Assembly: GCA_000182565.2 (NCBI GenBank)
Contig: KQ257461.1
Strand: one strand, 5' to 3'
Source: Spizellomyces punctatus DAOM BR117
Taxonomy: Eukaryota
Length of the DNA stretch: 64,000 nt
Every line of letters starts with the position of its first letter. Positions within the stretch are counted from its first letter, which is position 1. Positions 17,794 through 58,862 of the stretch are shown here, piece after piece. The notes under the pieces are model-generated. The model worked only from the letters and a program-made list of their open reading frames with translations, made no database searches and was not told the origin of the DNA. The position numbers and the translations under genes were made by a program.

Positions 17794-18196
17794 TCTAAAT
17801 CTTTTTAGTAACTAGTTGCAGAATAGGGTCTCGGGTGAATGGAATGAATTTCCGCCCTGGAGGTCTGATTGCAAATAACGCTGCGCTCGGTGGATTAATT
17901 GAAATTAAGATGACTGTGCCATTGATTACAAGCCTCAGATTGGAGAGTTTAGATTTTTGGACAAACTCTTTAAACGCTCGTAATGATTGCCTTTTCGTGG
18001 CCAGTTCCATACAGCATTGGTTTCCAGTTCATGCCATATGTAAAGTGCATGGACAAATAACCTCCATGTTAGAGTATGCCCCTTTCCATCCATTTCACTG
18101 AGAGCTATAACTTGCTTGATATGTGAGCGATACATATCGCCCTTACAGAGCAATCATGAACAAATATATTCAAACTATCCTGCTCACAGGTAAGTC

Positions 18197-18280
18197 GCCT
18201 CAGTAGCACAATCAGGTAGTGCACTCGCCTCCTAAGCTTAGGTTAGTGAGAGGTTGCGGGTTCGAGTCCCGTCTGAGGTG
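18197..18280 (+). tRNA. tRNA-Arg(CCT) with about 10-nt intron (18235-18244)
   Basis: Acceptor stem GCCTCAG/CTGAGGT, D arm GCAC..GTGC, anticodon stem CTCGC/GTGAG around CT-CCT-A, T arm GCGGG-TTCGAGT-CCCGT, downstream T-run. Confidence 0.85.
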
Positions 18281-19402
18281 TTTTGAAAGCGTCGTGGTTT
18301 TTTTTCACATTGTTTTCTGTTTTGATGCCTTGCAGAATGCTGCAATTCTCTTTGCCCTCAAGGCTTCCCTACCCGTTCTCAGCCAATACGAATGAATATT
18401 GGCATACATTGTTTTGATGAAATGCTTCGACCAGTATCCATTCGGCAAAACAAGATGCAAACAAGCATCCAATTGTTCGGATGCAAAAATGTACCGATTT
18501 CAGGGTCCTTGTCATCTCTTGGCCGAGTACCATGGATGTGGGATGTTTAATAACCAAACGTTCCAAAGCAAGATATAGCAACAAATGTCTCCAAATGGAA
18601 ATTCTGCCTCGTAAGGAGTGATGGAAGGCGTTTCAGTTGTATTGAAAACTGGTTAGCATGTGGGCTTAGCTACTCCAGGCCCAGATTTCACCATCCATCG
18701 TCGTCGTTCCTTTTTATTTTTGGCATGGGCTTTTGGGAAATCTAGTGTTTTTAATCCATTGCATCTTTTGCTCACCTTATGAACCATGAAGGTGAAGGGT
18801 AAGAGTGACAATGTTGTGTCAGGAGCTCTCCCTCCACTTGCAGAATGCTCACAAACGCTGGTGATTTCTAGGCCAAGTTGCATAGACGAAAGGCGGTGCA
18901 TTGCGGTGATCAAATGCACGGAAACACTCACAAACAGGTAAGCGCACGGACACTTGGACCTCCATGATCAACGCAGTCGAAAGGCGCTACAGACACAGGT
19001 GGCGGCCATACAGTCTGTTCTGCCGTGACACGTGGACTGGCAGAGAGTGAAATTCACTGTCGGTGCTGGCAGTTCAGATCCGTTTTTTGGTCGGTCCAGA
19101 ATTGGATATGCGGTTCAGGCACATTTGTTATGGCTCAGATCTGTTCTCAACTTTTTTGCTTGCTTTACATCAAATAGCGCAACTGCCCCACCATTTTAAT
19201 TTAATCGTTACGACTGCGAAATTCATAAGCGATCGAATAGGACTGTACCTGCACAATATCACAAAAGCAAATTTCCAACGATCGCACAAACCTGCACACC
19301 ACGAGCCCAGCAAGGATCTGATATCCAGCTCCCTGTAGATAACCGTTCAAACCTCAAACTTGTAGACTTTGCATACAACCATCCTTTGTGCCAGAATTTT
19401 CG

Positions 19403-22400
19403 ATGCCAGCAACAGAATTTGACTCTCTCATCTCCTCCGACTCTGATTCAGACGACCAACGAAAGCGCGTACTTGCGCGGGCGTTGAGAAAGAAGGAAGC
19501 CGAGAATGGTCGGTCGGACTCTGAATTGTTCGACTCTGATCCATCATCTCTTTCCGAATCAATGCTTTCTGATCTATCCTCGTCCAGTAGTGAAGATGAT
19601 GAACCGCACACGATAATATCTGGAAAAAAACGACGAAGAGACTCTATCGTATCTACGACATCCGTCGGGTCAGTCTCTAAAAAGCCCCGCGGAAATCGAA
19701 GTGTAACAAATAAGAAGCCACCAGCAAAAGGTACTGTCAAAATAAAAGGAGCAGCAGGAAAGGGAAAGGGACGAGGGACGGGTACCATATCTTCAAAAGG
19801 AACTGGTACGCCAGCATCCAACTCAAAGTCGCGGGCGTCAGGAAAGAAAAACGGCTCGCTCAAGAAGCAGCTATATTGTATATGTCGGTCCGAATACGAT
19901 GGGGAAGAGTTTATGATTGCTTGTGATGGATGCCAAGGTTGGTGCAAAAAAGTTCATAAACAATTTATCAATCGCGCACTCACGTTATTGGAATTCCAGA
20001 ATGGTTCCATGGAAAGTGTGTCGGTGTCAAACCGTCGAAAGCTAGTGAAAAGGAGTATTATTGCGACGAATGTTGCCCAAAACCGCCGCCAATAGACTCA
20101 CTTGGAGGCCGTCAAGGTAGGCACAATTTGTAAGGTGCGACTGAAAGGTCCAATACTGACTAATAACCCAGGTCAAAAAGGATCTCGGACGTCCGTAGAA
20201 CCCATAATACAGGCTGATGACGACCTGGGCGATGATGACATTTGCGTCTTGTGCGATGGCGATTGTACATGCAATGTCCCTAAAGCGGAGGACGTCGTTG
20301 AACCAGTTCCCTCACCTATTGCAGTGTATCCACCCGAAATATCTCCCATAACAAAAAGAAAGGCTGGGAAAGGTGCAACGGTGTCTAAAGTGGCCGGAAA
20401 AGGAAAAAGCAGCGTGGCTTTGAAAAACATTCTTAGAGAAGCTCCTCCGGAGATCGTACCTAAACCAAAAAAGAAATCAAAGAGGGATGCGTCTCGTACA
20501 GCGAATACAAAGAAATCAAAGACGATTGCTTCCAAAGCAACGGATAATTGGATCGTGCAGGACGCTAGTCAGACAGTTTCGATTCAAAGTGATGATGAAG
20601 CAGAGGTCCAGACGCGTGCCGACGAGGAACTAGAGGATACCATTCAGAATAGCGATGACGACATCTTTGCGTCTGACGTAGATGATGCATCTGACATTTA
20701 TGCCATTGTGGATGGGCAAAATGGGAACGAACATGATGACGACGAGGGAGAGGACCACAGCGATGAGAACGATGCTGATGCTGATGAGGACGATAATGAG
20801 GATGAAGACGTATTGTCCACTTACCAAAACTACGATGCAGAGCAGCGGATTTTAGGATGGAGCGAGTCTGATGAGGAAGAGGACGATGATGACGATGATG
20901 ACTTTTTCAAGTCCCCGGCATTGGTGCCAGGCAGATCCATGACCACCGCCGAGTCGACGTCTATTCTCGGTGATATCGATATTGACGACTTGCTCGATCT
21001 GGGGATGCCAACAGAGGGTCTCGAAGAGATTGATTTTACTAATGGGGACGATCCAATACCAGATCTGGATTTTTTCAACGCCGATTCTCTTGATATAGAC
21101 TCCCACTCACCCGACTCTCAATCCAATGGGGTTTGCGACACGCAGACGACAAGCGCGCCAGTAGGCGCAGTTTCAGCCGCAACGTCACCAGGCGACAGTC
21201 CTGCCCAACCCGTAACAGTGGGCCCAACGTCAATATCCTTTGACATTAAGAAAACTGATGTGGGGCCAAACGGGGAAATCACCACGACGACAAAAACAAT
21301 GACGTTCCAGTTGAACGGGACTCAGTCTGCATTGTTGGCTGCCGGAAAGACAATTGGAACAAAGCGCCGAGATGGGGGTGCCAAGCGTGGCGCAAAGACT
21401 ACCCCAAGGCTTGGACGTGCGGTTACGAGCGGTCCGCTTGGAAGTCCTGGGGTTGGTACACATATCAATGGTTTGACCGGAGGGGCTGCAAGCGCATCAG
21501 CACCTTCAACAATATCTCCGTTTCCTTCCTTCTTGTCATCTTCCGGGACCCCAGGAGGATATGCGTCAATGTCTCCTCTTTTATCGACTCGCTCGTCCCT
21601 CCCAACCTTCCCCCTCTCCAGTACCACATCTGCTGTTACCGCAGCCACTTTGCTCAAGACGCCATTGGATCCTTCCATTCTTGCTGCCGCAGCAGCTGCC
21701 ATGGTCGGTTCTGGGGGATTATTGGGAACTCCCTCTACACCTGCAACAGGCACCGGCTTGGCGGGAAGACCTGATTTGCAGAAACTGATTGATAGCATTA
21801 CCCTCAATGCCAAAGTGAAAGCGGCGCTTGCTGCTACCGTTGGTGGGGCCATCGCCTCTGGGAACACGAATATCCCAACCGCGACACATCCGAAGCCGCA
21901 GGACGGAGGGCTTAAAGCAAAGGATGCCGCACCGAGTGTGCCTGGAACTAGACCAAATTTTCCTCAACCTCCACCGAATCCGTTTCTCGGGTTTGACTTT
22001 CCAAAGACAATGGAAGAGTTTAATCGGTTATTTAGTCCTCAAAATGTTGCTGCAGCTGCCGCCGCGGCCGCAGCTGCCGCTGCAGCGTATGCTTCTACAA
22101 CTGGTTCTGCAACGGGTTTTACTGGTAATGCTTCGACGACTACTGCTTTTGCTGGTGTACCGCCTCCTAGTGTGTTGACACAGGCTGTCATGGGTGCAGG
22201 GGTAGGTGCCGTTGGCGGTGGCATTAGCTCGTTGGGTGCATCTACCATACCGGCGCCAGTTGTTTCGGCTCCCATACCACCTCCCGCACCGTTGTCAGGA
22301 CCGACATCTTCCCCATCCACCAATCCGCCTATCAAAGAAGAACCAGCTCCGCCGGCAGATATGACCATGGAGGATCTCTTTGACACCGCCGCTCTCGATT

Positions 22401-22870
22401 CGTCTCTTCTCGATGCCACCTCCGTTCCTAGTACCTCCGCACAAGATGATCGATGGAGAAAGATTCCAATCGGGGCTTTCCGACGATCGAGACGGATGAG
22501 TGGAGATGGAGGTGGATGGCGGGGATTAAAAGCGGCCATTAAAGGCGGCCGGAGGGTGTTTAACGAAACGCTTTTGGTAGAGGGTGGCATGTGGAGCCAC
22601 CAAACTCCGCAACACATACCCCTCGACAGTGACACTGTCAATGAGAGTTTATCTGTGAATGCACCCAACGCGACCCAGCATCGTATGGAAAACTCTTATG
22701 AAGACGATTTTGTTCGGGAACTGGGTGGAGAGTGGGGTGCTTTAGATAAAGCCTGTGAGGAACATGCTCTTAATTCACCTGGTGAATCGGTATTTGGAGA
22801 TGTGCACGGCCGGCGAAAGGGGAAGGGCAAGAAGAAGGGGAAAAAGGTCAAGATAGGTAGACGGATTTAA
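19403..22870 (+). CDS. PHD-finger protein with long acidic and Ala/Pro/Gly low-complexity regions
   Basis: Spliced PHD [37 protein letters not shown], then a long final exon (most of the 922-codon ORF) with basic NLS-like stretches. Confidence 0.8.
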
Positions 22871-35461: not shown

Positions 35462-38400
35462 TCACCCTCGCATGTTCATATTTCGTCCAGCGGAACTGCT
35501 TCCGGTCTTTCCTCTTCCCCTCCACTGACCGCGTCCTCTCCATCCAGAATTCTTGCCCCGCCATTTCTTTCCACTTCCAGTTCTGCCGGCAGGAGTTTGT
35601 TTGGGTGGGGTTTCGCGTGGAACTCGCTTTCCTTTGCTATCAAACTGTTTATGGAACATCTCCAGACTTCCACTTACATCCTCTCCATCAGCAAGATGTT
35701 CGAAGCCCTCAAGCGGCGATAGATTTTCATCATCCTCGTCATTTCCGAAGCCACTGCGGTCATCTTCCGCCAGGGTTGCTTGCTGTGCCCATATAAAATT
35801 GTCTCCCGCATGCTGTAATGAACTGACTGGTGGGCGGACGTCGTTGTAATCACCATCCCATTCGTAAGGGATGTTCTGCTCTACTTGGCCGTCCCACGCA
35901 GGATTATCGGTACCCACGTCTTCAGAGAGACCGGTAGCCATACTTTGCATCTTCCTTATATCGTTCTCTTTTGGCATCGTGTTTTCGGAAAGGTCAACAG
36001 GTCCTTGCACGTTATCTGCGCCCTTCTGACGGTCCAAGTCGTCCTCCACATGCTGTTGTAGATTTTCTTTTAAAACCATCTTATCACAGATGAAGCATTG
36101 TTCCCAACTTTCTTGACGATTCCTTCGAACATCTGGTTTTCGTCGTTTTCCAGGACTGCTTATTCGTGGGTCCGGAACTGAAAAATACTAGTCAGAAAAG
36201 AGAGGGAGTAGGTATTTTGCAAAGAATGTCATACCAGTCCCGCTTCCGTTTCCATTTTGGAGTTGGCTTTCACGCTTTTCTTCTCGGTTAACATACCACA
36301 AGATGTTCGGTCCAGGCATATCATCTGGGTCCAGGTCGCTGTCCTCGCTGCTATCTTCTAACATATTCGTCTTTCCACCTGGAGTGCGTTTTTGAAGGCG
36401 ACGTTTGCGACTGAGTTCAGACAGTCTGCGCTTCTTTTCCTCCTTCGAGGCACATGGTGGTTGGGGGGTGTCGCTTTCGGATTCGATTGTGATTGCTAGA
36501 GTGCGATTAGGTGATGAGACAGGGGTATTGCCGTTGCAAGCAGAAGCATGCTCCTCGACGGCATCGGCAAAGAAATATTTGCTGCAGATGGGGCATGCAA
36601 CCTTAGTGCCATCACCGAGGTAAATGTCAATTCACGACTTTCAATAATCCGAATGGAGGCCCACTTACCTTATCGAACCCCGAGTCCTGTTCACCCAGAC
36701 CAGGGGTGTTATCTATTTTTCCTGGCACGGTTCGATCGTTCGAATCCTTCCCGATAATGTCCAACGTCAAATCTAACGCATCATCTTTACTGCTATCACT
36801 CTCGGACACGTCTTCTTGCAGGTTCTCGCCAAGTTCCATTGGAATTCGCTCGTGGGGTTCAACATTGTTCATTCCGAACAAGTCCCTAAAAGATCTGGGT
36901 TTCAGATCCGACTGCGGTATGTCCTGCGCTAGGTCCTTTCCCCTTTGCCGCTCGCTTCGCGGCACCCCAGTCGTGCTAGGCGAGATTCCAGGGGTGAAGC
37001 TGAACCGGGTGGCTGCTTTTACCCCACTTGTACTTCCAAGGTCAAAAAACTCGTCAGCAGGTTGAACGGGAGTAAAGACAGATGTGGCCGAAACAACTTT
37101 GGGTATTGGCTTCCCAATTTTAGTGGCAGTATCAATCCTATTGACCTCCTTCGACGCCTCAGAAGACGAGAGTACTCGACCCGAAGATGACGCCGATGCC
37201 AGCACGGGCGATGATCGAGCATGTTGCATGGCGGGGGATTGTCGTTCGCTCGCTAGCCAAGGCCTTTGTCTGCCAGCTGACGCGCTAGCACCAAATTGCC
37301 AATCTGGACCCCCTTTTTGGCTTGATGTCGGACCTGGTGTAGTCAAAATAAGAATATCAACATCATCTTCCAGTTCGTCAACACGACTGTTTTGATTAGA
37401 TGTGCCATTTCGGGTGCGAGCTCCTTTTTCGGGCGTTTGCTCCACGGAGGACTGCAAGGAAAACTCTGGTGTAGCCTTGGCATGTTCAGGCTCACAGCCC
37501 TGGGGAAAAGCTGCATTGGCCACATCCTTCTCCGAAAGTGTCCCACTTCCAGCAACGCGGCGCTTTTTTGCCGGTGACTCAAAGAGAGGGCTTGCGTAAA
37601 TCGCGTGAGGGTTACTGGCAATGGTATTTTCTTCTGCCGACACCACGGCTTCAGGATTTTCCCATAATGGCGAATCGCTTTTGACTGAGCCTTCATCTCC
37701 GGCTTCCTTGCCCCCAATGACGGTCTCCGACGTTGTTTTAACTGGTATCATGATCTCCACCTCCAGGTGCTTACGTTTAAGCTTTTGGGTTTCAGGCGTT
37801 TCACTCTGCTTTAGAACATCTTCATGAGATATGATCCGGGGACTGGTTCGACGTGACTTGGACAGCGAGACCGAGTCCTTTTTGGTGGGGTCCGGAGGAG
37901 ACGCGCTGCGTCGTATTTTGACCAGATTCCGAATCGAGATAGGTGTGGATCCTGGTAGAGACATAAGCCCTTCGGTTTTGTTGATAGGAACGTCGCTCAG
38001 CGATGGATCAGAAGCAGATTCAGTTTTGTGAGACTCTGAGCAGGACTGTGCCTCGTCAGCTAACTTCGGCAGAACGCAGCGGGACCCGCGTTCTCCTGTC
38101 GTTTCACGGGACCACGGTTTAGAAGCAGTCGGAGCCCTGGCTGCCCGTGTGCGATTCACATGTCGCGGGTCAATCTGGTATAGTGCGTACAGAGTGGACA
38201 AAAACCGTTTGTGACGACGCTTTCGTTCGGTTTGGCTCATTCTTGCGCCATGCTCCACTTCAGTGGCTTCAGAAAGGCTGCTTGTTTTCTCACAACCTTC
38301 ACTTTGGGAGATACCGGATACACTCTCCACCAGGAGACCGTGATTACCTCGTAATTCGGACATGGCGGATCGTGTCCTCGTCACTTTGCCAAATTGATGT

Positions 38401-39350
38401 GACTGGCTTTCCGGGGTCAAGGAAGTATTTGAATGCATGCTTTTGGACGGCTGGCCAATTTGCGATTCCTTATCAGTCCCTCTATGCGTTCCCCGGCGTG
38501 TGGGAATTGGGATAGTCACTGATTCGTCTCCACTGGACGGCGTCTCTGATTTGGCACGAGTATTGCTCTTGAAACTTCCGCTGCTTTTTTCTTGATTCAA
38601 TCTAACGGCGTTTGGAGGTGACGATTCCCGTCCTGCTTTCGCTTGAATATCAATATTGCAAAGTTTCTTGACACGCCCACTAGACAACGTTGGTGTAGCT
38701 GGAGAATTGCGAGGAGTGAATCTTTTTCTCTTCTTCCGCTTGGATGAAGGTTTCTCTTGCTCATAGTCGATATCTAAACTGACTGTGGGTTCAGCGCAAT
38801 CAGAATAGTTTTTTTCAGAGGGTCGACGGGAGGATCCAAGCGAATGGTTATTTCCGGGTGACTGCTCTATTGGAAAGTCTCTGGAATCATGGCGGGCATC
38901 GGCCTGATTTTTTGACAGATCATTATTTGCGGATCCTGTATCGCTGCACTGGTTATCGGCTTCATGGCGAGTGGACTGAATTTCACTGAGGATGACATGC
39001 TGCTGGTGACGGTGCTCCTGAAGGCTAAGCGCGACGGCTCGTGAGAGTTCGTCATTGTAGTCGTCATTCCCTGTACTGCCCTCAGCAGAGCTTGCGGTAC
39101 CTGCCGACCAAACCATAGAATATCAGCAGTGTTTGCCAAGGGAAGAGATCTACAGAAAAGACACCGCCTACCGTCTCTTTTGCGGCACGATACCATTGTT
39201 TGTAAACAAGGTGCTGTCAGCGTCTATATCTCAAAACGCACAAGCTGTGGCGAGGTTTCTGTAAAACGGTCTGGCCTACCTGGAATGGGAGAAGGTGAGG
39301 GTCGTTTGAGAGGTCCGTGACCTCTTCTTGGACCTCATTCCTCTAACCAT
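35462..39350 (-). CDS. Large Ser/charged low-complexity protein with a UIM-like motif, multi-exon
   Basis: 829-codon and 205-codon ORFs linked by introns. DELSRAVALSLQE resembles a ubiquitin-interacting motif; KRKKRKR is NLS-like. 5' end uncertain. Confidence 0.6.
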
Positions 39351-39575: not shown

Positions 39576-39647
39576 TCCGCATTGGTCCAGTGGTTAGGAT
39601 TCCGCGCTCTCACCGCGGCGGCCGGGGTTCGATTCCCCGATGCGGAA
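39576..39647 (+). tRNA. tRNA-Glu(CTC)
   Basis: 72 nt; acceptor TCCGCAT/ATGCGGA, anticodon arm CCGCG-CTCTCAC-CGCGG, T loop GGTTCGATTCC, following T-run. Confidence 0.96.
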
Positions 39648-41264: not shown

Positions 41265-44200
41265 ATGGATATGTTCAATGACGTTGGAACACACCCTTGG
41301 CTATTGGCGTGGATAACTCTCGGGCGTTTTGTCGTTGAACTTTTTTTTTCGTTCACATCCTCTAGGTGGCCCGGGAAATGAAGTGATATCCAGCGATACC
41401 ACTTACGGAAAACTGCTCGAGCAGCTCATTGCTCAGGAAGTGGTGGATCAGCATAAAAAGGATGCAGCCGTGATTATCGATATATTGCGCACTCAAGGGC
41501 AACCCGATGCACAGATATGGGCAACTCTAATACAAGCCCGGTATGTTTCAATATAGGGTCGATTGGAACTGATCCTGTACTGACCACTTCACTATCATAC
41601 AGACGAGCGAAATTAAAGAGGCCCTTTGCATCACAGGAGCATGAAGGGCAGCAATTGCAGAATGGCATGTCTACGAAAGTTGCAGCGGTTGCACAGCGGT
41701 TTGCCGCCAGTAATGTTATGTCTGTGTCAGCCAAGCCATCAGTGCCACTACCGATCACTTCAGCGGCGCCTTTAGTGACTGCCCAAGTCATTGTTGGCGC
41801 TGCAGAAGCCGCTCAACCGTCTGCTATTGTCGTGGATCGTCATCCATCACCAGCAGTTACCAATCCTGTCAACGCACCAAATGTTCGAATAACAAAGTCT
41901 CCTCGTGCTCATCCACCTCCGCCGCAACTCCCGAAGCCGCTTCCTGTCCGGCCTATGGCAGTTCAACAGGTAGCCCAACCCCCAAGGCAGGTCACTTGTA
42001 CGACCGTGGACGACAGAGTGAATGGATCAGATCAGGAACAGCGGAAGACAGTACACGCGGCTGAGGTTGACTCCCCGTCGTCTACTATTCCTCAAACAGG
42101 GAAAGTCGGTCAATCAAGTGAAATTCTGATAGGCATGTCAACAGCTACGGAAGTTTCACTGGGATCTCAAACTAAGGGTATTCCCAGCTACGATAGCATG
42201 GATGAAGCAGCGTTGATACGGCAGCTCCAAGCTAAACAAGAAGATGTGACGAAGTATGAGAAGTTAGCTACGATTGCCAGAGCGGAGGCAAAGCGCTTGA
42301 AGAAAGCTCTGTTGAGAAAGCGGAAACGGGTAGAGTCTACAGACAGTGTTCTTCCTAATGGAGAACAACCAACACTCCTTCCTGGCGTTGACGATACCGT
42401 GCAGCAAACGCAGGTTGATAAACTACCAAAAAAGAAGCGCAAGTTGCAGGATAGTCTGACGGAGCCAACAAAATCAAATACAGCTGGTCAAGCTAGCAAG
42501 TCACTTGCAGGCGAGAGTGCGATGGAAACGCCAAAGGAATTGCCAAACATTGTTGGAGAACGCCAGGCCGAGGCAAGACAGATTCAGACTCAGATTACTC
42601 CAAAGGCAAAGCCTTTGGCAAGTAAACCATGGACTTTGCGCATGACCGAGGACGATGATGAAGTAGGGTTCACGACGGCTGGTCCTGTCAAGATTAATGT
42701 CACATCAACGCGTCAAGGAAATGATGCCCCGCAAAATACCCAAATGATCGAAGTCCCCAGTTACGATACCAAGGAACTCGTCACAGACAGGACGCAAAGC
42801 GAGAAGACATCTATCGCCGTGAAAATGTCGGTATCTAACATACGCATGCCATCTGAGCATGATGCAGTTGAAGTCGCATCTACCGCGAAGGGAGCGACTC
42901 TATCCCCTCGTGAGCAGCGTGAGGCAGAAGTTAGAAAAGCAATGGAGAGGGATGAATGGGCAAAGCGCCAGCGCGCAAGCGAATCAAGCAAGCAAAGACC
43001 TCTTTCGCTTGATTCCGACTACGGGCAAATCATTCAAGAGTATCAGCAAAAGGCACAGTCCGTGTACAACGAGCGAATGGCGCTAACGAAGAGATCGAGT
43101 ATTGTGGAAGAGGTGACATCTCAAGTGGATGCAATGAAAAAAGCAAAAAAAGGGAAGCAAGCACCTCCGATCGTCGAGACACCATTGGCAGCGAATTCCT
43201 CGGAAAGAAGGGTTTCTCTGACCGAGGAAGAAGCCCGACGACTGCGCGAAGCCGCTCAGAAACGACTCCTCATCAAGCAGCGTGAGGAATTGGAGATGAT
43301 GGCCCGCGAGGCCGCTCAGAAACGACGCGACGAGGCCGAGAAAATGGCTCACGAAGAGGAGCAGCGACGGCGGGAAGCACAGCGCCGCGTGGAAGAGCTG
43401 CTGAAACGTGAGGAAGCGGAGAGGAAACGACGACATGAAGAGGAACGGAAGCATCGTGCAGAACGAGCAAGACTGCAGCGTGAAGAGCAAGAGCGGAAGA
43501 AACGGGAAGAGGAAGAGAGACGTCGTGAAGAGCAAGAGCACAAGAAACGGGAAGAAGAAGAAAAAAGACTCCGTGAGGAGCAAGCTCGGTTACAGCGTGA
43601 AGAGCAAGAGCGCAAGAAACGTGAGGAAGAGGAAAAGAGACGTCGTGAGGAACAAGCTCGATTACAGCGTGAACAAGAGGAGCGAAAGCAAAGGGAGGAA
43701 CTCCTTCGCAAACAGTTGCAAGAGCAAGAGCGCAAGAAACGGGAAGAAGAGGAAAAGAGACTCCGTGAGGAACAAGCGCGCATGCAGCGTGAAGAGCAAG
43801 AGCGGAAGAAACGGGAAGAGGAAGAGAGACGTCGTGAAGAGCAAGAGCATAAGAAACGGGAAGAAGAAGAAAAGAGACTTCGTGAGGAGCAAGCTCGGTT
43901 ACAGCGTGAAGAGCAAGAGCGCAAGAAACGTGAGGAAGAGGAAAAGAGACGTCGTGAGGAGCAAGCTCGATTACAGCGTGAACAAGAGGAGCGAAAGCAA
44001 AGGGAGGAACTCCTTCGCAAACAGTTGCAAGAGCAAGAGCGCAAGAAACGGGAAGAAGAGGAAAAGAGACTCCGTGAGGAACAAGCGCGCATGCAGCGTG
44101 AAGAGCAAGAGCGGAAGAAACGGGAAGAGGAAGAAAAGAGACTTCGTGAGCAGCAAGCTCGGTTACAGCGTGAAGAGCAAGAGCGCAAGAAACGTGAAGA

Positions 44201-46201
44201 AGAGGAAAGGAGACGTCGCGAGGAACAAGCGCGCTTACAGCGTGAACAAGAGGAGCGAAAGCAACGGGAGGAACTTCTTCGCAAGCAATTACAAGAGCAA
44301 GAGCGCAAACGACGCGAAGAGCAGCTGCGGAAGCGTCTCGACGAGGAAGAAAGTAAACGTAAAGAGATAGAACATACTCAACGGCAACAGGATGAGGAAA
44401 TCCGACGCGCGGCAGAGCGGAGCTTGGCCGAAAAACAAAGACTCGCTCGAGACGCCCTTTTAGCAGATACATTTGTTCGTGGGGTAGTCTCAGAACACAC
44501 TGGGAAAGCGGTCGATGCGCAGAGTCAATTACATCAACAAGCTGAGAAACGGGCGGAGGAGCTGCGACAAAAGTTAATGAGAGGAAAGCAGATCAAGGAC
44601 GTACAAGGACGCAAGGTCTCAGAGAGCGCGCCAGAGTCTCTCACATCCAGCCCTGTGCAATTGCCAGCTCAGCCCTCCACTTCATCATTCTCACAAACAA
44701 AAGAGACGACACCGGTCTCCACTAGTAGGGCTCCGATACCCGGGTCAGGATCCTCATCAAAACTGCCCCTGGTATCGCATGTCCCCGTGACAACTGCCGT
44801 AGTGAGCGTTGTTCATGACCTGTCTCCGAACCAACTTACGGCCTCTCCAATTATCTCGAAGGCGAAGCAACTAGAACTGGAAGAAGGAGAAATCGAAGAG
44901 TTCTCTACACCAGTCAGCAGCAAGACCAATAGTCCTGTGCCAGTTCAGCAGGTTGAAGTTTTGAAACGAACTAGCCAGCCGGCAAGCGTTATTGGATCAA
45001 CTGCTGTACTTTCGGTTAGCTCCGGGCAGAATGGTAAGAGATGCGCTCACATGGCTCTGTCGTTGTGCTCATTCCGCGATCTGCTTAATTCTGCTTATTG
45101 ATCCTGACAGCATTATCCTCAACGCCTGCTGTGTGTGGTGCAAGGGTGAAAACTGAAAGTGCTATCGCCAGTCCCGAAATACCATATGAAGTGGAAACGC
45201 CAAGTTCAGCAAGAACAGGTCGTGAGCGTTCTATGACCACGGAAATCAATCCGTTCGCCGTTGTGCGCTTCGCTAACGGACAACCATCGGTGGGCCAACA
45301 ATTTTCGACTCAGAATCCATTCATCCAGAATTCGGCCATGGGCCCAGGATTCACAGGGGCCAATTTGATGGGTGGTTTTGGTGCTCCTGGATTAGGTTTT
45401 CCCCTTGCTGACGGAGGAATGTTTGCTACAGGGGCATCCGCTAGCTTACCTCCGGAAATCAGAGCTCAAATTCTTGCGTCGCATCATCAAGCCCTGCAAA
45501 CATATCAACAAGCCTTGACGCAATTTACCGCTCACTTCTTGAATCAAGCAGCCATCTCTTTCCCTCAACCTCGACCGCAGGTACAAGGTATGGTACCGCC
45601 TGCGGCACCAGTATTCGGCCCCACCATCCCGCCACAGCAAGGAACGCAGACCGGATTTCAAGCAGATACCACCCTTTCTGCACCATTGTCATCCACAGCC
45701 GCTAGGCAAGCTTTGCAACCAAGTGACCTTGGAATGACAACAGGTGGGCGTCCCGGTGTTGTTCCAGCTAACCCTCCCCTAGCATTCCCTGAACGTCTAA
45801 GGGCAATGGGCGGAGCTCCAAACTTCATTGGCTTTGGCGCCCCCCCAATGATGGGTGGATTTACCTATCCTCAAGGCGCAGTTTTGCCTCAGCAGCCTGG
45901 GAATCCGACACCTTTTTCAATGCCTACCAATGGTCCACCGACGATGATGAACATAAATCCTCCTTCGGGTACAGCGCCGGGAGGGTATACTCCAACTGTA
46001 CCCTTTGTGGGCAGTTTATCAGGCGCCGGCTCTAGCACCACGCCAACTCCTATGCAACGAATGGCTGGTGTTCCCGTTGGAGGAGCAACGATGGATGAGA
46101 CTACTTTGAGGGGCATTCAACAAAGGATTGCTGATATGGCTAGACAACAAGGATCACCACAAGGAAGCACGCAGGTGTCCCATCCTGGATTTCAAAGTTA
46201 G
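41265..46201 (+). CDS. Very large low-complexity protein with E/R/K/Q helical repeat and Pro/Gly/Gln-rich C-terminus
   Basis: 1194-codon ORF joined by an intron (about 45033-45110) to a 367-codon ORF. Upstream small exons and the start are uncertain. Confidence 0.7.
43474..44308 (+). repeat. Coding tandem repeat, 309-bp (103-aa) period, about 2.7 copies, built from shorter EEQERKKREEE subunits
   Basis: TGCAGCGTGAAGAGCAAGAGCGGAAGAAACGGGAAGAGGAAGA recurs at 43474, 43783 and 44092. Confidence 0.92.
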
Positions 46202-51020: not shown

Positions 51021-51290
51021 ATTTCTTGTTGTTAAACCGAACCCTGGCTGGTGCAGCGTGAAGCTGCTGCGCACACATAACGCAGCGACGCGTTCGTTGA
51101 TTACATAATATCGAGGTGAGGGCTCATCCTGCGATCAATACTCATGCAACACCAGGAGCTCTCCCATTAGTGAGCATCAGTACGTCTCCATAAGACTTCG
51201 AACATACTGCTTGAACTACCATCTATAGCAAGAACGTTCGTTTGGTGATGGGGGGAAAGATGCACATTTGGAGTTTGAGATCACTACATA

Positions 51291-52020
51291 GTGTGGAGGC
51301 GATTGAAAATGGCACTAGGACCCATTATTATCCGGATTAATCCGGTTAATCATATCGCATAATCAGAACCCCCCTCTATCGCTCTTGGTGTGGCATGCAT
51401 GTAATGTTTTTTTTTAAAATTGCGATGTGGTGCATGCCAAAGGTCTATAAAAGGGGGGCCTTTTCCCTCTTTCCTCTTTACCCATCCTCGACTCTCAAAG
51501 CATCTGCACAAATGCTCATTGCGACCCACATTGCAACTCATTGCGACTCGGTCAACCATGAGAATGCCGATGTGGTGGTGTCGAGGACCTCGACCACCCA
51601 ACAGCAACCGTGATCAGAACCAGTGGCAACCAATCGGATCCGATAACAGAACCTACTATTACGCTGCCACATTAGTTGAGCTTGGTTGGTATGTATCGAT
51701 GGCATTTCTTGCATTTCTTGTCATCGGGTCATCTTCTGACATGCAGTTTTTTTCTCTAGTCTCCAAGCCTTGTCACTGAAGATCCTCCAGCTTACGAGTC
51801 TCCCCAATATTGTGAAGACTCTGGCTTCAATGCCATCAAGAGTTCTGGATCAAGGCCTAGTAGGGACTGCGTGTGGTGGTGGGCAGTTATCCGGTTAGAA
51901 CAACCGTTACGTATTGCGTGTATAATTGCCTAGTAGTAGTTAGTTAGCTTTTCCGAACCAGTTGTCGCCGGTTTATTCCCTGGTGTAGTAGCTAGTGCCA
52001 GTTTCTGTCACCTAATACAC
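51291..52020 (+). mobile_element. Non-autonomous Fanzor-family 'ghost' TIR element without Fanzor ORF
   Basis: Flanked by CATA (51287-90) and TATG (52021-24). The left end GTGTGGAGGCGATTGAAAATGGCACTAG matches the reverse complement of the right end at 22/29 positions. It shares the GTG...TGGCACTAG frame with the Fanzor element TIR. Confidence 0.85.
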
Positions 52021-52037
52021 TATGTATTTCACCTGTA
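51948..52037 (+). ncRNA. Diverged omegaRNA-like scaffold (51948-52022) plus predicted guide TGTATTTCACCTGTA
   Basis: 44/54 identity to the first 54 nt of the scaffold at 56798, the same 75-nt length, ending in CACTA. Guide length assumed to be 15 nt. Confidence 0.75.
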
Positions 52038-53254: not shown

Positions 53255-53994
53255 CCTTCAAAACTATGCGCTATTTGCGCAATACTGCAGGTGCCCTCAC
53301 CTTGGCGTCCTTTTTCACCTTCCATTTCGGATTATAAATGTGCAAATCTTATTTACAGCCTTCACGGCAAGTTTGACAGTTGGTAGGGCAGAAAAGATTC
53401 GCTGCGAGAGAGCTCAACTGTTCTTTTAAGTTCGTATTTTGAGCTTATATTACTCAAGGTTGGACACCTTTGTAGGAGCCTTTCTCCAGCTTCCGTATTT
53501 CAGAAGGCGAAGTTACTGACGGTCGGCTGCCTTTACACTACTGTAATACTGACGCCAATTCCAAGTGACCAAGGCTCACAGAAATTACCATCACGTATAA
53601 GAATCCACTGAATAGTCCATGTCTGCCATTACGTATCAAAGATATCGTGACTATTTCCCAAGGACCCTTGGGCTTGTCTGAGTCCTTTTGACGTGTAGAA
53701 GCAGGAACTCTTACAAAAAAGGACGTCGTGCATGAGAAAGGTTCCAATGCGGTGCTTCTTGCAACGTCGTTCAAAGCAGACGTCCACTTTCAATGTTATG
53801 GAGTTGACATTGATCAGACATATTTAGGCTACTCACAACGCGATGACATTATACACTATCCGTACCATATATACACTTTCAAAATAATCTTTGTGTTCTG
53901 CCTCATTGTCAGGTAACGGTAAGAGACCGACACAACAGTAGCAGTCTTCAATTACAAAAGCAATGAAAAAAAAGCACAAGATGAGGTGGGGAAG

Positions 53995-54076
53995 CGACAC
54001 GAGCAGGATTTGAACCTGCGCGGGCAGAGCCCAATAGATTTCTAGTCTATCGCCTTAACCACTCGGCCATCGTGTC
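53995..54076 (-). tRNA. tRNA-Ser(AGA)
   Basis: 82 nt; acceptor GACACGA/TCGTGTC, anticodon arm ATAGA-CTAGAAA-TCTAT, long variable arm GGGCTCTGCCC, T loop GGTTCAAATCC. Confidence 0.96.
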
Positions 54077-54825
54077 AGGTGAATGACAGAACAGGTATTT
54101 GCAATATATTCCTTGTGATATTCTATGCTCATCTGCTTCCCAGAGGCTGGCTCTAGGTAAGGCTCGTTGCAAGGAAAATTGTCGTGGCTGTAAGTTGACA
54201 TGAAGGAGTATGAAATCGCACTTTCGGGCGTTGCAGATACATTGTTGATATTGGCACTTCTCACATGTCGCCATTATCAACTATTATCATAGATGTGAAA
54301 GCAATGTTCGCATAGAAGGAGGACAGTAAAAGCAAGAATGAGCCACCTCGGTGCTAGCAGATCTGCCTCTCGTTTGGAGCACGATATATGCTCTATGAAA
54401 TTATGGCTTCATGTTTTTGAGACGAGCCTTAGACGTTGCGAGAAAGCCATGCTGAAAGACAGACTCCAATTTAGTTGACACTTGATCGAAAGCATAAGAC
54501 ATGGTAGATTTCATTGATGATTCGGATGATTTGGAGCCAATTATGTTGAAGTTATTAATTGGCATTAGCTCCGTCCATCCAGGATACATTGATGATGTCC
54601 ATGAACTTTGGAGAATAGGTTCAGCACCTTTTCTGATGGTTTTGTGTTAAAGAAAGTACGCAGTTACTTGCCGATGCTTCATGGGAACAAGATTTGGCCC
54701 AGTTCTCAACCCTTGTACATAGTGCGGAGCCGATGGGTATTGGCACTAGTACAAAGATTCCAACCAATTTAATCATAATTTTACTCGATTTAGACTCATG
54801 AACTATGGTTTGATCCAAAAAGTCC

Positions 54826-54832
54826 TATATAA
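54826..54832 (+). promoter_or_regulatory. Putative TATA box of the Fanzor gene
   Basis: TATATAA starts 57 nt upstream of the ATG; its context is similar to that in the ghost element (51446-51452). Confidence 0.5.
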
Positions 54833-54882
54833 GTTGTCGGGCCCATTTTCCCAGGCTTTCGTCTTTTTCCACAGATATCATC

Positions 54883-56783
54883 ATGCCACCAAAGAAAAAG
54901 CAAAAACTCGAAAAACTCGACAAACCTACTTGCTTACATACCTGCAACAAGACTTCCTTTGCAAAAGCTTTCCTGCCAAACGAGATCTACCGCCAACGGC
55001 TTCTAGATTACATTGCCATGATCCATCAACTTGCTGACCATGCTTCCCACACTCTCAAATTCTACATCCTATCTGCACCATCCTTCACCGTAAACGAGGA
55101 GACCATCGAAGCAATTCTCTATCTTCTCAACAAAGGAGAGGCTTGGCAACCAAAAACTGATGCGAAAAGGGCATTGCGCGAATGCTTGCTGCCCTATGTC
55201 CGACGGTACTGCCACATCGTCGGCTTCGTTCATCCAAATCTACAAAAAGAGCAGCAATCAGTCAATTACCTGACAATGAGTATGATGACGAACCTGAAAG
55301 TCAACGTCCAAGAGCATTTCATGCAGATGATCCTTCGGTATATCAATCTGCGGCTTGACGTGAAGGGACGGAAAGGGCAATTTCCTCCAAAGAGTGAAGC
55401 GCGAAAAGCTTTCTTTGCTCGGCTACGCTACTTGAAGTCAGTTTTCCTTTTCGAAACAATGCCAGAATCGCTGGATGACTTGAGCATTCTTGAAAACGAG
55501 ATTTTAGAAGAGATCTGGACACTTAACCTGCCATTTCCTGATCAAGACAAGCCGCTTGCCTACCTCATTGCCATCGACGCGATGTCCTTCTTGCCTGCAT
55601 ACTGCAAACTCTCCCGCTCTATGAGCATCATGGATTTCGATGGTTTAGCGCCATACCTCTTCGCCGCTCCCTCATCCAAAGCCATATACGCATTGACACC
55701 GTCATCCTCTATTCTCATGTTCTTTGCATCCCCCGCAGACGCAGAGAGGCAGAAGCCATAGAGAAGGATGATCTGTGGTTGCGTGTCTGTAATCTACGTA
55801 CCAAAGCTTTTCAGTCTCGCCGCAGTATGCAGTTTGAAGGCTCGATCACGACGGACGGAACCTCGGTGTCTGTATACCTAAAGCACCCCGAAGCAGACAA
55901 GTATGGAAAGCGCGGAGCGAGAAAGTCAGCAAAGACTCTAGAAGCTGAGGTGAAGGCAGTATATGTGGAGAACAACTTGCCTGCTTGTCGAGCAGCAGAA
56001 AATGTCGTCATTATTGACCCAAACAAGCGCGACCTTCTCTACTGCCAAGACAGCAATGGTGCGACGATGTTTCACTATACCGCCAATCAACGCTGCAAGG
56101 AGACTGGTAGCCGGCGATTTGCAAAGGAACGGCAGCAGATGAAGAAGGAAGCGGGAATGGACCTTATAGAATCGCGAATACCATCTCACAAGACGATGAA
56201 CCTCATGGATTTCCTCCGCTACCTCCTCGTCCGTTGTGTCGACTGGAACCGCCGCAAGGACTTCTATTCGCATCCTGCTCATACTCGATGGAAATGGCAC
56301 TCCTTCATAAACCGTCAGAAGAGCGAATCAGACCTCATAAGTAACATGCGCAACAAGTACAGTGAAAACCTTACTGTTGTAATGGGTGATTGGAGCGATG
56401 CCGGTCGAACTGCAAGATTTCAGACCTCATCAAAGACAAAAGGCTGGCGCACCCTCTTTAAGCGCAACCGCATTGATTGTTTCCTTCTCGACGAGTACAA
56501 GACCTCATCTGTTTGCCCTCGCTGTTCCTCATCTGAGTTTGTGGAGAAAAAATTCAAAGAACGACCTCATTCAAGACCTTATCGACAACGAGAAGGCAAG
56601 ATTGAAAAAGTCCACGGATTGCTGGGTTGTACCAACCCTAACTGTTTGCAGCAAGCCTGGACGATGCGCTACTGGAATCGAGATACGCTGAGCACCTGCA
56701 ATATGCTAACGATCGTGCAATCAATGTTGGATGGACACGGTAGACCAGAAGTGTTCAGCAGGAGTGTTCCAGCCGTAGCTTAG
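54883..56783 (+). pseudogene. Fz1: Fanzor1 RNA-guided RuvC endonuclease (SpuFz1-like), split by a 1-nt frameshift near 55617
   Basis: N-terminal NLS MPPKKKQKL; RuvC motifs IIDPNKRD, LLDEYKTS and NRDTLS; Zn finger CPRC..CTNPNC. Adding one base near 55617 gives a continuous 633-aa ORF. Confidence 0.92.
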
Positions 56784-56797
56784 ATTGGTTAGATTAG

Positions 56798-56887
56798 GTT
56801 TTCCGAGCCGGTTGTCGCGCGGTTCAATCCCTGGTGCGGGTGCTAGTGCCAATACCCACCGGCTCCGCACTATGTTACCAAGTCTGT
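56798..56887 (+). ncRNA. Fanzor omegaRNA: 75-nt scaffold (56798-56872) plus predicted guide TGTTACCAAGTCTGT
   Basis: Starts 14 nt after the Fanzor stop and overlaps the right TIR. Stems GAGCCG/CGGTTC, GGGTG/TACCC and TGGTGCGG/CCGCACTA. Matches my recollection of the SpuFz1 scaffold. Guide length assumed. Confidence 0.88.
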
Positions 56888-57110
56888 ATAACAAGAAGTC
56901 ACTGGATGCAACTTTGGGGTCGACTATTGAGCCGTCAATTTACGCGGTGACATGGTAGAAAAGCATTGATAACTTAAACTATCACCATGCAATAAGTCTT
57001 GCGACAATGGTTAACCTTTAACACGCTCTATGTAGAATATCTATTAAATGCCAGCAATCTGCAGCATAGGTTGGAGAACTTAATGATAGGAACTTTCAAC
57101 GCTCAAAGTA

Positions 57111-57935
57111 CTATGATTGACTTCCTTCCATCGCATCACCACCAAAAAACCTCTCCCACACGCGTCTCGCACCCATTCTTGCCCGATCAAACAGAGCAGA
57201 TGGGCTATCCAAAGCAGGCCTTACATCCACATTGAAGGCAGGAACACCCGGCGCTTCATCGGGGGCAGAGTAGTAGTCAATGACGTAGCGCACTTGCTGT
57301 CCGCAGCGATCAACCGTCCAATCGTGGCGATCAAAGGGCTTGTCCACTCTGGAAGAAAACGCTAATTAGGGCTACAAAGACACCAACAGCAGATGACATG
57401 TACAGATAACATACCCAAACCAGCTGTACATCCTTGCCTTAGGTGTCAGGTCCTGCGGTCTACCCTGAAACTTTGCCAACTTGACATCCTTGCAGTCACA
57501 GTGAAACATTTTTTCCCACTTGAGGACCTCCCCCCAGCAAGCCTCGTTTAAAAAGTTATGAATATCAACCATGGTAGGAATCTCATGTTCCGGGGTTTCC
57601 CATCCTTTTCGTTTAAGCGCGTTGTAAAACTGTTGTGGGGAAGGGTAGTCCCATGTCTTGTCTTGGACGTCTTGGCGGGGAATGGAGGAGGATGTGCGTT
57701 CGGTGGAGAGGTTGACCGTTTGGCCTTGAGAAGGGGTTTGGGGGAGGTTGGGCATCATATTGAGAGGGTTGATGTGGGAGGAGGTGTGGTCGACAGGGCA
57801 GCCGCCTCCTGAGGAAGAGGCGGAGGTCGACGAAGAGGGTGCTGATCGCTTCCCAGCAATGGACGCAAAAGAAGAGTGGTCAACGGGACATGTACCTCCC
57901 GAAGAGGAGGTTTGAGAATCTGGTGAAGGCGTCAT
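57111..57935 (-). CDS. Holocytochrome c/c1 synthase (heme lyase), 2 exons
   Basis: Two CPV heme-regulatory motifs, WDYPSPQQFYNALKRKG, IHNFLNE, PFDRHDW, RYVIDYY and DVRPALDS. Confidence 0.95.
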
Positions 57936-58862
57936 GACGGAGAACACTAGTCGCAAGGTCACAACAAAGTGCGAATTGAAGACGGGAAGAAAAACAAAAG
58001 ACACGGCAGCGTTAAGCGTGTGCGCAATTGCAGTCGGAGTATTTTTGGGAGGCACAGCCATCTGAAGTAATGTTTGTTGCCATGACACCAACCAAGTGCG
58101 ATTGCCTTGACGGAATCACTCACATATCAGATGCTGTTTTTGTGTTTATCTTCATTCTACAGTCATTGATTTATTCAATTGGCTGCAATGTTACAGGTAT
58201 TGACATTTGGCTTTCTTTGCCATACCATCCCAGTCAGATGCACGGTTAGGGTTTGCAGTTATATCTTAGAAATGTGGTTGGATTAACAGGTTGGAGTGTC
58301 TGGGCAGAGAGTTAAGATACCCGGGATATCTTGCAAGCGAATGAGGGTATTCTCCTTTGGAAGCAATTAAAAGGCAATCTGATGTAGGGCCACCAAATCG
58401 CAACAGCTTATGCTACATATTTTATTCGTTTCGTATGCATAACTTGGCCAGAGTTTCATAGATCACATATTCAGGCACCGGCTTTCCGTCTGGCAACCAT
58501 TCTTGGGTGTTCGTCATAATTTTCAAGCAATTGTCCAATCCCATCTTCTGCTGCCGACGGTCATCTGCAGGTAATAGAAAAGAACCTAGCTGCTACTGCT
58601 TGCCACGTACCCACTTGAGGAGACCTTGCTATCTCGATCCATTGTACCTGAAAATCGATTGGTACCAAAATATTAACTAACTTGTCCCCCTTCCTCTTCA
58701 GTAGGAGGATATATATCTTTAGCTTCTTCCATAACTATCTCCAACTATTTACTTATCCTCATAATCCTGGGGTAACAAAATGATAGTATCACGTGATATT
58801 GTTTACGAGATTGGTCGTCCATTTGGGCTAGCCCAGAGGAAAAAGGGATCTAAGAATCGAGA

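What the first reader, a model, noticed from the sequence alone, without database searches (positions are those of the whole stretch)
54718..56887. Complete eukaryotic RNA-guided nuclease locus (Fanzor1 + omegaRNA + TAM) inside a TIR element
Seen in sequence: 28-bp TIRs (27/28), TA duplication, CATA immediately 5' of the element, a TnpB-like RuvC ORF with D/E/D catalytic motifs and a Zn finger, and a structured 75-nt segment running from just after the stop codon through the right TIR into host DNA. Established: Fanzors are eukaryotic OMEGA nucleases whose guide is the flank beyond the right end, and SpuFz1 uses a CATA TAM. Inference: the RNP would cut the empty allele CATA-TGTTACCAAGTCTGT. 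The family is known, but this copy appears diverged from SpuFz1.
Basis: partly seen in the sequence, partly recalled or inferred. Interest (0 to 1): 0.85.

Follow-up and report, generated by a model that had tools for sequence, protein, structure and literature searches.

The report
Frameshifted copy of known Fanzor transposon
This is one more copy of the already published SPu-1 Fanzor element of the soil fungus Spizellomyces punctatus, with its guide-RNA end intact but its nuclease gene broken by a one-base frameshift, so it is ordinary for this genome.

Summary
A 2,153-bp element (54720-56872) has 30-nt inverted ends (29/30), TA at both ends, CA before the left end (CATA) and a Fanzor1 reading frame. 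A 75-nt right-end segment matches the published SpuFz1 omegaRNA scaffold at 18 of 18 nucleotides named in the paper.

The neighbouring gene is 100% identical to SPPG_06544 of Spizellomyces punctatus DAOM BR117. That is the genome in which this family was discovered (SPu-1, Bao and Jurka 2013) and characterised (SpuFz1, Saito et al. 2023: 42 Fz loci, 134 ghost loci, CATA TAM, 75-nt scaffold plus 14-15-nt guide).

The protein is about 85% identical to SpuFz1, within the published spread of about 82%. Catalytic D383/N385/E541/D606 and all four zinc-finger cysteines are kept. One base is missing in the codon matching SpuFz1 G251 (55615-55616), so the frame changes and the first frame stops at 55759-55761 before the RuvC domain.

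Most likely this is a recently inactivated copy whose omegaRNA could still guide Fanzor protein made by other copies to the empty site CATA-TGTTACCAAGTCTGT. That step is inferred, not shown. A ghost-type sister element lies 2.7 kb upstream. Novelty: already known.

The parts
54718..54721 (+). CATA: the conserved CA flank plus the left TA. It equals the published SpuFz1 TAM.
   Evidence: Read. CA upstream of the 5' IR and the CATA TAM are described in PMC10432273, sections 7 and 8.
54720..54749 (+). Left 30-nt inverted repeat, including the TA (putative target-site duplication).
   Evidence: 29/30 to the right end.
54826..54833 (+). TATATAAG, a TATA-box-like motif about 50 nt upstream of the ATG. 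This is inferred only.
   Evidence: Read; not tested.
54883..55614 (+). Fanzor1 ORF, first part (244 aa, matching SpuFz1 residues 1-250). It begins with the basic stretch MPPKKKQKLEK.
   Evidence: E 1.7e-120 to PDB 8gkh; 192/252 identical.
55615..55616 (+). Two-base remnant of the codon matching SpuFz1 G251. This is the site of the 1-nt frameshift. If read on, the first frame stops at 55759-55761.
   Evidence: X1 contig over 55564-55854 with 0 differences and 0 gaps.
55617..56783 (+). Fanzor1 ORF, second part (388 aa plus stop, matching SpuFz1 residues 252-638). It carries the WED/RuvC/NUC regions with D383, N385, E541, D606 and the C4 zinc finger.
   Evidence: E 3.9e-224; 338/390 identical.
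56798..56872 (+). 75-nt omegaRNA scaffold: stem 1, the 6-nt linker AAUCCC, and stem 2 with an 8-nt loop.
   Evidence: fold; 18/18 nucleotides named in PMC10432273 section 10 match in this register.
56843..56872 (-). Right 30-nt inverted repeat, including TA. It forms the 3' strand of stem 2.
56873..56887 (+). Flanking 15 nt, TGTTACCAAGTCTGT: the presumed guide.
   Evidence: Position follows the published model (scaffold plus 14-15 nt; PMC10432273 section 7). It is unique in the window at 0-1 mismatch. No RNA evidence was obtained for this locus.

Best explanation
This is a copy of the SPu-1 (Spu-1) Fanzor1 element of Spizellomyces punctatus DAOM BR117, inserted at a TA between a tRNA-Ser gene and the holocytochrome c synthase gene.

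Its ends and its omegaRNA scaffold are intact. Its nuclease gene has one 1-nt deletion, in the codon matching SpuFz1 G251, so the locus by itself yields only a truncated REC fragment.

By the published mechanism, the right end would be transcribed into an RNA of about 90 nt (scaffold 56798-56872 plus guide 56873-56887). Fanzor protein from one of the intact paralogues could bind it and cut DNA carrying CATA followed by TGTTACCAAGTCTGT, which is the unoccupied insertion site. The occupied locus is spared: at the right junction the guide match is preceded by ACTA, and at the left junction CATA is followed by element sequence.

Shown here: the anatomy, the homology, the conserved residues, the frameshift and the host genome. 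Inferred: transcription of this copy's omegaRNA, loading in trans, and cleavage of the empty site.
For: Host: the flanking ORF 57372-58115(-) is 100% identical to SPPG_06544 of S. punctatus DAOM BR117. The next best hit is 67%.

Family: phmmer against PDB gives SpuFz1 (8gkh) at E 3.9e-224 for the C part and 1.7e-120 for the N part. tblastn of SPPG_07727 places residues 1-250 and 252-638 in two frames. SPPG_07727 aligns over 2-638 to the 8gkh chain at 1493 bits, and all 48 residues named in the paper fit its numbering.

Identity is 84.7% to SpuFz1 and 86.9% to SPPG_09423.

Conserved residues: catalytic 4/4, zinc-finger Cys 4/4, TAM contacts 5/6 (R96K), scaffold contacts 19/25, heteroduplex contacts 12/13.

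Only 2 of 114 columns that are at least 90% conserved among 22 homologues deviate (R401H, W570Y). The six closest homologues (four annotated S. punctatus full-length proteins and two unnamed close relatives) deviate at 0-3 such columns.

The omegaRNA scaffold matches 18/18 named nucleotides, and the fold shows two stems, a 6-nt linker and an 8-nt loop, as published (PMC10432273 sections 9, 10).

The element's length (2,153 bp), its inverted repeats, TA and CA all match the published descriptions (PMC3627910 section 5; PMC10432273 section 7).

The frameshift is present in the X1 contig (291 nt, 0 differences). An X10 contig also crosses it over 55564-55761 with no gap.
Against: No RNA evidence was obtained for this locus's right junction. 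None of the four runs laid has a contig crossing 56873-57026.

X1 may be the data the assembly was made from, so it is not certainly independent support for the frameshift.

The fold energy alone is not significant (z -1.1 to -1.9).

Six of 25 scaffold-contact residues differ from SpuFz1, including W570Y, the residue that stacks on U5. Even a corrected protein might therefore behave differently.

I could not see Supplementary Data 1 and 2 of Saito et al., so I cannot say that this exact locus is in their list of 42.
Confidence: 0.85

Rival explanations
1. The copy is in fact intact and autonomous. On this view the missing base at 55615-16 is an error of the reference assembly, and the locus makes its own Fanzor RNP.
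For: There is only one lesion in 633 codons and no in-frame stop in either aligned part. Conservation is as good as in intact paralogues. The break lies next to a short C run, a context where some sequencing chemistries miscount bases; this last point is my own knowledge.
Against: The X1 contig (291 nt, word depth 13.3) reproduces the site exactly. An X10 contig from another study and year crosses it with no gap. No annotated protein identical to this copy appeared among the 61 hits of 213-679 aa.
Confidence: 0.08
2. The element is a dead relic: neither its protein nor its RNA is made or used, and it persists only as neutral DNA.
For: The ORF is broken. No listed run is on record as RNA. No contig bridges the right junction. 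Bao and Jurka found only 9 of 17 full-length copies with intact ORFs (PMC3627910 section 5), so decay is common in this family.
Against: The ends are 29/30 and the scaffold matches 18/18. Ghost loci, which lack the gene altogether, give functional omegaRNAs (PMC10432273 section 9). Contigs identical to this copy over 120, 180 and 291 nt exist in X1. X1's coverage pattern looks like a transcriptome: the flanks are absent while the neighbouring gene is present. The tool, however, labels the run 'DNA?'.
Confidence: 0.2
3. The break is bypassed in the cell by a tiny intron, programmed frameshifting or editing, so that a full-length protein is still made.
For: None was found, apart from the good conservation on both sides of the break.
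Against: The alignment to SpuFz1 is continuous up to residue 250 and resumes at residue 252, with only 2 nt between. That leaves no room for an intron. No insertion at this site appears in any contig (table 4).
Confidence: 0.02

Closest known systems
SpuFz1 (SPPG_07727; PDB 8gkh) in its Spu-1 locus, Saito et al. 2023 (PMC10432273)
   Same: Same genome and same element family. It shares the 30-nt inverted repeats, the CA plus TA on the left, a locus of about 2.1 kb, a single ORF, and a 75-nt scaffold that begins shortly after the stop codon with the guide in the flank. The catalytic and zinc residues are identical, and 18/18 named scaffold nucleotides are identical.
   Different: Amino-acid identity is 84.7%, with several 1-3-residue indels. 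There is a 1-nt frameshift at codon 251. Contact residues R96K, W570Y, R572Q, R419E, R315Q, M607T and R260W differ, and S598 is absent. The guide and the insertion site are different.
SPu-1 / SPu-1-1p, the prototype Fanzor1 element, Bao and Jurka 2013 (PMC3627910)
   Same: About 2,100 bp, with TIRs (33 bp by their count), putative TA duplications and one ORF of about 633 aa. It carries the motif D...[TS][TS]xx-C4 zinc finger...RD, here IDPN...TSSVCPRC...CTNPNC...NRD.
   Different: This copy belongs to those without an intact ORF; they reported 9 of 17 full-length copies as intact. I could not see their additional files, so I could not compare it with their consensus.
Ghost Spu-1 elements (Saito et al. 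2023)
   Same: Functionally this copy would act like a ghost: it has the ends and an omegaRNA but makes no working nuclease. A ghost-type element lies 2.7 kb upstream in the window (51289-52022).
   Different: Ghosts lack the ORF, have inverted repeats differing at about 7 positions, and have a different stem 2. This copy keeps the canonical inverted repeats, the 8-nt loop and a nearly whole gene.
TnpB of IS200/IS605 (e.g. ISDra2) and its omegaRNA
   Same: By the literature it shares the working logic: a RuvC nuclease guided by an RNA from the right end whose guide is the flank, and a TAM that equals the sequence before the left end.
   Different: No sequence-level match to TnpB or Cas12 structures was found, even with a 23-sequence profile (only three Fanzor1 structures at E up to 1). 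There was no Pfam hit either. The SpuFz1 omegaRNA lacks the pseudoknot (PMC10432273 discussion). This is a eukaryotic TIR/TA element with no TnpA.

Membership tests
Fanzor1 (SpuFz1 / SPu-1-1p clade) | Full-length sequence homology to characterised Fanzor1 proteins | tested here: met
   A profile of 23 sequences hits SpuFz1, Parasitella Fz1 and Guillardia Fz1 structures.
Fanzor1 (SpuFz1 / SPu-1-1p clade) | RuvC catalytic and metal residues D383, N385, E541, D606 | tested here: met
   4/4 kept. The residue list is from PMC10432273 section 10.
Fanzor1 (SpuFz1 / SPu-1-1p clade) | C4 zinc finger preceded by [TS][TS]xx and followed by RD (Bao and Jurka motif) | tested here: met
   C548, C551, C586 and C591 are kept. 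TSSVCPRC...CTNPNC...WNRD is read.
Fanzor1 (SpuFz1 / SPu-1-1p clade) | Uninterrupted ORF able to give the whole nuclease | tested here: not met
   A 1-nt frameshift at 55615-16. The copy is a member by descent, but as a pseudogene.
Fanzor1 (SpuFz1 / SPu-1-1p clade) | omegaRNA from the right end, bound by the protein, that guides TAM-dependent dsDNA cleavage | not testable with these tools
   Only sequence identity of the scaffold (18/18) and the predicted fold are available. There are no RNA or cleavage data for this locus.
SPu-1 / Spu-1 transposable element | About 2.1 kb, 30-33-nt terminal inverted repeats, TA at both ends, CA before the left end | tested here: met
   2,153 bp; inverted repeats 29/30; TA at both ends; CA at 54718-19.
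SPu-1 / Spu-1 transposable element | TA is a true target-site duplication (an empty site carries a single TA) | not testable with these tools
   No genome is held for this window, and no empty allele was seen in the runs laid. An indirect argument: the published TAM CATA fits the empty site only if one TA remains.
SPu-1 / Spu-1 transposable element | Resides in Spizellomyces punctatus | tested here: met
   The neighbouring gene is 100% identical to SPPG_06544 of DAOM BR117. 27 of the 61 Fz hits are DAOM BR117 proteins.
TnpB / OrfB_Zn_ribbon superfamily (prokaryotic) | Detectable sequence match to TnpB or Pfam OrfB_Zn_ribbon | tested here: not met
   There is no Pfam-A family at E up to 0.01, and only two chance-level matches to unrelated families (ArgoMid, DUF7537) for the window C part at E up to 10. 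SpuFz1 itself also gets no Pfam-A family in this copy of the library. There is no TnpB or Cas12 chain at E up to 1 with the profile. The relationship rests on published structural work, not on a test made here.
Tc1/mariner-type DNA transposon | DDE transposase within the element or nearby | tested here: not met
   The element holds only the Fz ORF. None of the 36 other window ORFs scanned against Pfam is a transposase. Saito et al. also found no transposase within Spu-1 inverted repeats (PMC10432273 discussion).

The most novel reading that the evidence does not exclude
Frameshifted Fz copies such as this one may be a living intermediate between gene-bearing and ghost Spu-1 elements. They would be kept because their intact right end still supplies a locus-specific guide to Fanzor protein made elsewhere.

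The ORF may also be crossed by spliced antisense transcripts. Two contig joints, of 75 and 72 nt, have GT..AG ends on the minus strand. That would point to regulation of Fanzor copies by antisense RNA.
Probability: 0.2. Interest if true: 0.35.

Novelty: already known. Interest (0 to 1): 0.1.

Why it matters
It matters little beyond bookkeeping. The family, its RNA, its TAM, its structure and its copy census in this very genome are published.

The useful corrections are three. The locus is a pseudogene copy rather than a complete system. Its omegaRNA end is nonetheless canonical. A ghost element sits next to it.

If pseudogene copies are shown to donate guides in trans, that would add a small piece to an open question. 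That question is what Fanzor does for elements that carry no transposase.

Tried and rejected
Whole-genome search for other copies and an empty site: no genome is held for this window.

Rfam: no family for the right end. The only real hit in 54000-57600 was a tRNA; the others were chance-level.

Pfam-A: no family for either part of the protein, nor for SpuFz1 itself. The family PF26935 listed for the homologues gave no match even for SpuFz1 in this scan, so it is apparently not in the library copy, and the blank says nothing.

The bacterial promoter and terminator scan is irrelevant to a eukaryote and showed nothing above shuffles.

I searched two papers for the scaffold sequence in print, to compare it letter by letter. 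There were 0 occurrences, so I used the nucleotides named in the structure text instead.

Sequencing runs: no RNA holder is listed. In the four runs laid, nothing covers 54300-54703 or 56926-57026, and no contig crosses the right junction into the guide. Expression of this locus's omegaRNA is therefore left open.

I looked for an intron that could bridge the two frames and rejected it, because only 2 nt lie between the aligned parts.

I looked for paralogues lacking the 25- and 24-residue stretches skipped in the contig joints. None of the 22 aligned homologues lacks them.

A palindromic target ACA-TA-TGT is seen at both elements in the window. The loose ends of other copies show other right flanks (CGAATT..., ACTATA...), so I dropped it as a rule.

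They may list this exact locus.

Full report
**What is there**

The region was read. An inverted repeat joins 54717-54752 to 56840-56875, 36 nt at 94% complementarity. Counted as in the literature, the 30-nt repeat including its terminal TA is 54720-54749 on the left and 56843-56872 on the right, with 29 of 30 positions identical. A 25-nt end pattern with up to 3 mismatches occurs only at these two places in the window, against none in 100 shuffles. CA precedes the left TA, giving CATA at 54718-54721. The element from TA to TA is 2,153 bp.

**The gene**

Two overlapping open frames cover the interior. Against the Protein Data Bank, the C-terminal 372 residues hit the SpuFz1 chain of 8gkh at E 3.9e-224. 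Parasitella Fanzor1 follows at 1.8e-38. The N-terminal frame hits SpuFz1 at 1.7e-120.

- The database protein SPPG_07727 (P0003, 638 aa) aligns over residues 2-638 to that chain. All 48 residues named in the structure paper fit its numbering, so I treat it as SpuFz1.
- BLASTP and tblastn place SpuFz1 1-250 on 54883-55614 (192/252 identical). They place 252-638 on 55617-56780 (338/390 identical), in a different frame.
- Only two bases (55615-16) stand where codon 251 should be. This is a one-base deletion, and there is no room for an intron.
- Read on in the first frame, translation stops at 55759-61, before the RuvC domain.
- A 291-nt contig of run X1 covers 55564-55854 with no difference and no gap. 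A contig of run X10 crosses 55564-55761 with two substitutions and no gap. The break is thus not peculiar to the window's assembly, although X1 may be the assembly's own data.

**State of the protein**

I read the gene through with X at the break and aligned it with 22 homologues.

- Identity is 84.7% to SpuFz1. It is 86.9% to SPPG_09423, its closest annotated paralogue among those compared.
- It departs from columns that are at least 90% conserved in the others at only 2 of 114, R401H and W570Y. The six closest homologues (four annotated S. punctatus full-length proteins and two unnamed close relatives) depart at 0-3.
- Using the residue lists in section 10 of Saito et al. (read in full), the following are kept:

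| Residue group | Kept | Changes |
|---|---|---|
| Catalytic/metal | 4/4 | none |
| Zinc-finger cysteines | 4/4 | none |
| TAM contacts | 5/6 | R96K |
| Scaffold contacts | 19/25 | W570Y, R572Q, R419E, R315Q, M607T; S598 absent |
| Heteroduplex contacts | 12/13 | R260W |

The gene therefore evolved under constraint until recently and then acquired one disabling lesion.

**The RNA end**

With position 1 set at 56798, all 18 scaffold nucleotides that the paper names are matched. These are U5, C6, C7, U16-G20, G22, A29, C32, C34, U35, G37, C40, G70, A72 and A75. The twelve neighbouring registers match only 2-6.

- The predicted fold has stem 1, an unpaired AAUCCC at 29-34 (the paper's 6-nt linker A29-C34) and stem 2 with an 8-nt loop. 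The 15 flank bases stay unpaired.
- The energy is not clearly better than shuffles (z -1.9 and -1.1). The fold alone would prove nothing; the match to the solved RNA is what counts.
- The scaffold ends with the element's last base. The guide is the next 15 nt, TGTTACCAAGTCTGT (56873-56887), which is unique in the window at 0-1 mismatch.

**Where the window comes from**

The ORF to the right (57372-58115, minus strand; Pfam Cyto_heme_lyase) is 100% identical to SPPG_06544 of Spizellomyces punctatus DAOM BR117. The next best hit is 67%. Of the 61 Fanzor hits, 27 are DAOM BR117 proteins, at up to 87% identity to the C part. None is identical to this copy.

**What is already published**

- Bao and Jurka 2013 (PMC3627910; passages read) discovered the first eukaryotic TnpB-like protein in this fungus. 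Their SPu-1 is about 2,100 bp, with 33-bp TIRs, putative TA duplications and one ORF of 633 aa. They counted 17 full-length copies, nine of them intact.
- Saito et al. 2023 (PMC10432273; sections 7, 8 and 10 read in full, and other passages) counted 42 Fz loci in DAOM BR117, 19 of them full-length, and 134 ghost loci. They reported about 82% protein identity among copies and 30-nt inverted repeats with CA upstream.
- They also found an 88-90-nt RNA made of a 75-nt scaffold plus a 14-15-nt flank-derived guide, seen by small-RNA-seq at four loci. The TAM is CATA, and any single change in it abolishes cleavage. They solved the structure.
- Every feature of the finding is in these two papers. I could not open their supplementary lists, so I cannot say under which entry this locus stands.

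**How it most likely works**

This follows the published model and is inferred for this copy. The right end gives an omegaRNA whose guide is the flank. Fanzor protein from an intact paralogue binds it and cuts DNA with CATA followed by the guide match, which is the unoccupied site with a single TA.

In the occupied locus the guide match is preceded by ACTA, and the CATA on the left is followed by element sequence, so the copy does not target itself. The fact that the measured TAM equals CA plus one TA is itself an argument that TA is a target-site duplication. Functionally this copy is then equivalent to a ghost element.

**Surroundings**

- A ghost-type relative lies 2.7 kb upstream at 51289-52022 (734 bp). 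It has CATA at 51287-90 and a left repeat matching 24/30. Its right-end scaffold is 83% identical over 64 nt (E about 1e-10). Its own flank is TGTATTTCACCTGTA.
- Comparing the two predicted stem-2 helices, two base pairs change on both sides: C40-G70 becomes U-A, and G41-C69 becomes A-U (two sequences only).
- tRNA-Ser(AGA) lies at 53994-54076 on the minus strand.
- None of the 36 other ORFs scanned in the window is a transposase.

**Relationship to TnpB**

Neither the single sequence nor a 23-sequence profile reaches any TnpB or Cas12 structure at E up to 1. Pfam-A as held here gives no family even for SpuFz1. The TnpB ancestry is taken from the literature and was not tested here.

**Run data, with limits**

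No listed run is on record as RNA. X1 leaves the unique flanks 54300-54703 uncovered, yet it covers the neighbouring gene from 57063 onward. It also holds contigs identical to this copy over 120, 180 and 291 nt. That pattern looks like a transcriptome, but the tool labels the run 'DNA?'.

Two contig joints skip 55489-55563 (75 nt; X1 and X10) and about 56302-56374 (72 nt; X1). Both have CT..AC ends, which read GT..AG on the minus strand. None of the 22 aligned homologues lacks these residues. They may be antisense introns or deleted paralogues; I could not decide.

**Verdict**

It belongs to the prototype, fully characterised family in the very genome where that family was defined. It is already known, and of low interest.

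Noticed in passing
window 51287-52037: A ghost-type Spu-1 element lies at 51289-52022 (734 bp), in the same orientation and 2.7 kb upstream of the Fz copy. It has CATA on its left, and its left repeat matches the Fz repeat at 24/30. Its 75-nt right-end scaffold is 83% identical to the Fz one, and its flank is TGTATTTCACCTGTA. Two stem-2 pairs differ from the Fz scaffold on both sides.
   Followed up: partly
window 55489-55563 and 56302-56374: Run contigs skip these 75 and 72 nt (the first in X1 and X10, the second in X1). Both skipped pieces have CT..AC ends, which read GT..AG on the minus strand (GTAGGC...AAG and GTAAGG...AAG). They may be spliced antisense transcripts across the Fanzor ORF, or paralogues with in-frame deletions. 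None of the 22 aligned homologues lacks these residues.
   Followed up: partly
window 53994-54076 (-), 18196-18281 (+), 39576-39647 (+): Three tRNA genes: Ser(AGA), Leu(AAG) and Glu(CTC). The Ser gene lies 644 bp left of the Fz element.
   Followed up: no
window 57111-58115 (-): A holocytochrome c synthase gene in at least two exons, 100% identical to SPPG_06544 of S. punctatus DAOM BR117. A run contig begins at 57063, about 50 nt past its stop codon.
   Followed up: partly
window 54715-54724 and 56869-56878; 51285-51292 and 52019-52027: At both elements the flanks read ACA-TA...TA-TGT, a palindromic insertion site. Loose ends of other copies in the runs show other right flanks, so it is not a rule.
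   Followed up: partly
window 51689-51759: Inside the ghost element, a stretch of about 71 nt starts with GTATGT and ends with a pyrimidine run plus TAG, like a short fungal intron. It lies downstream of a TATAAAAG motif near 51447. This was seen by eye only.
   Followed up: no
window 20096-22870 (+), 36627-39122 (-), 41457-46201 (+): Long open frames of 924, 831, and 1214 plus 370 aa have no Pfam-A family at E up to 0.001. Their nature was not examined.
   Followed up: no
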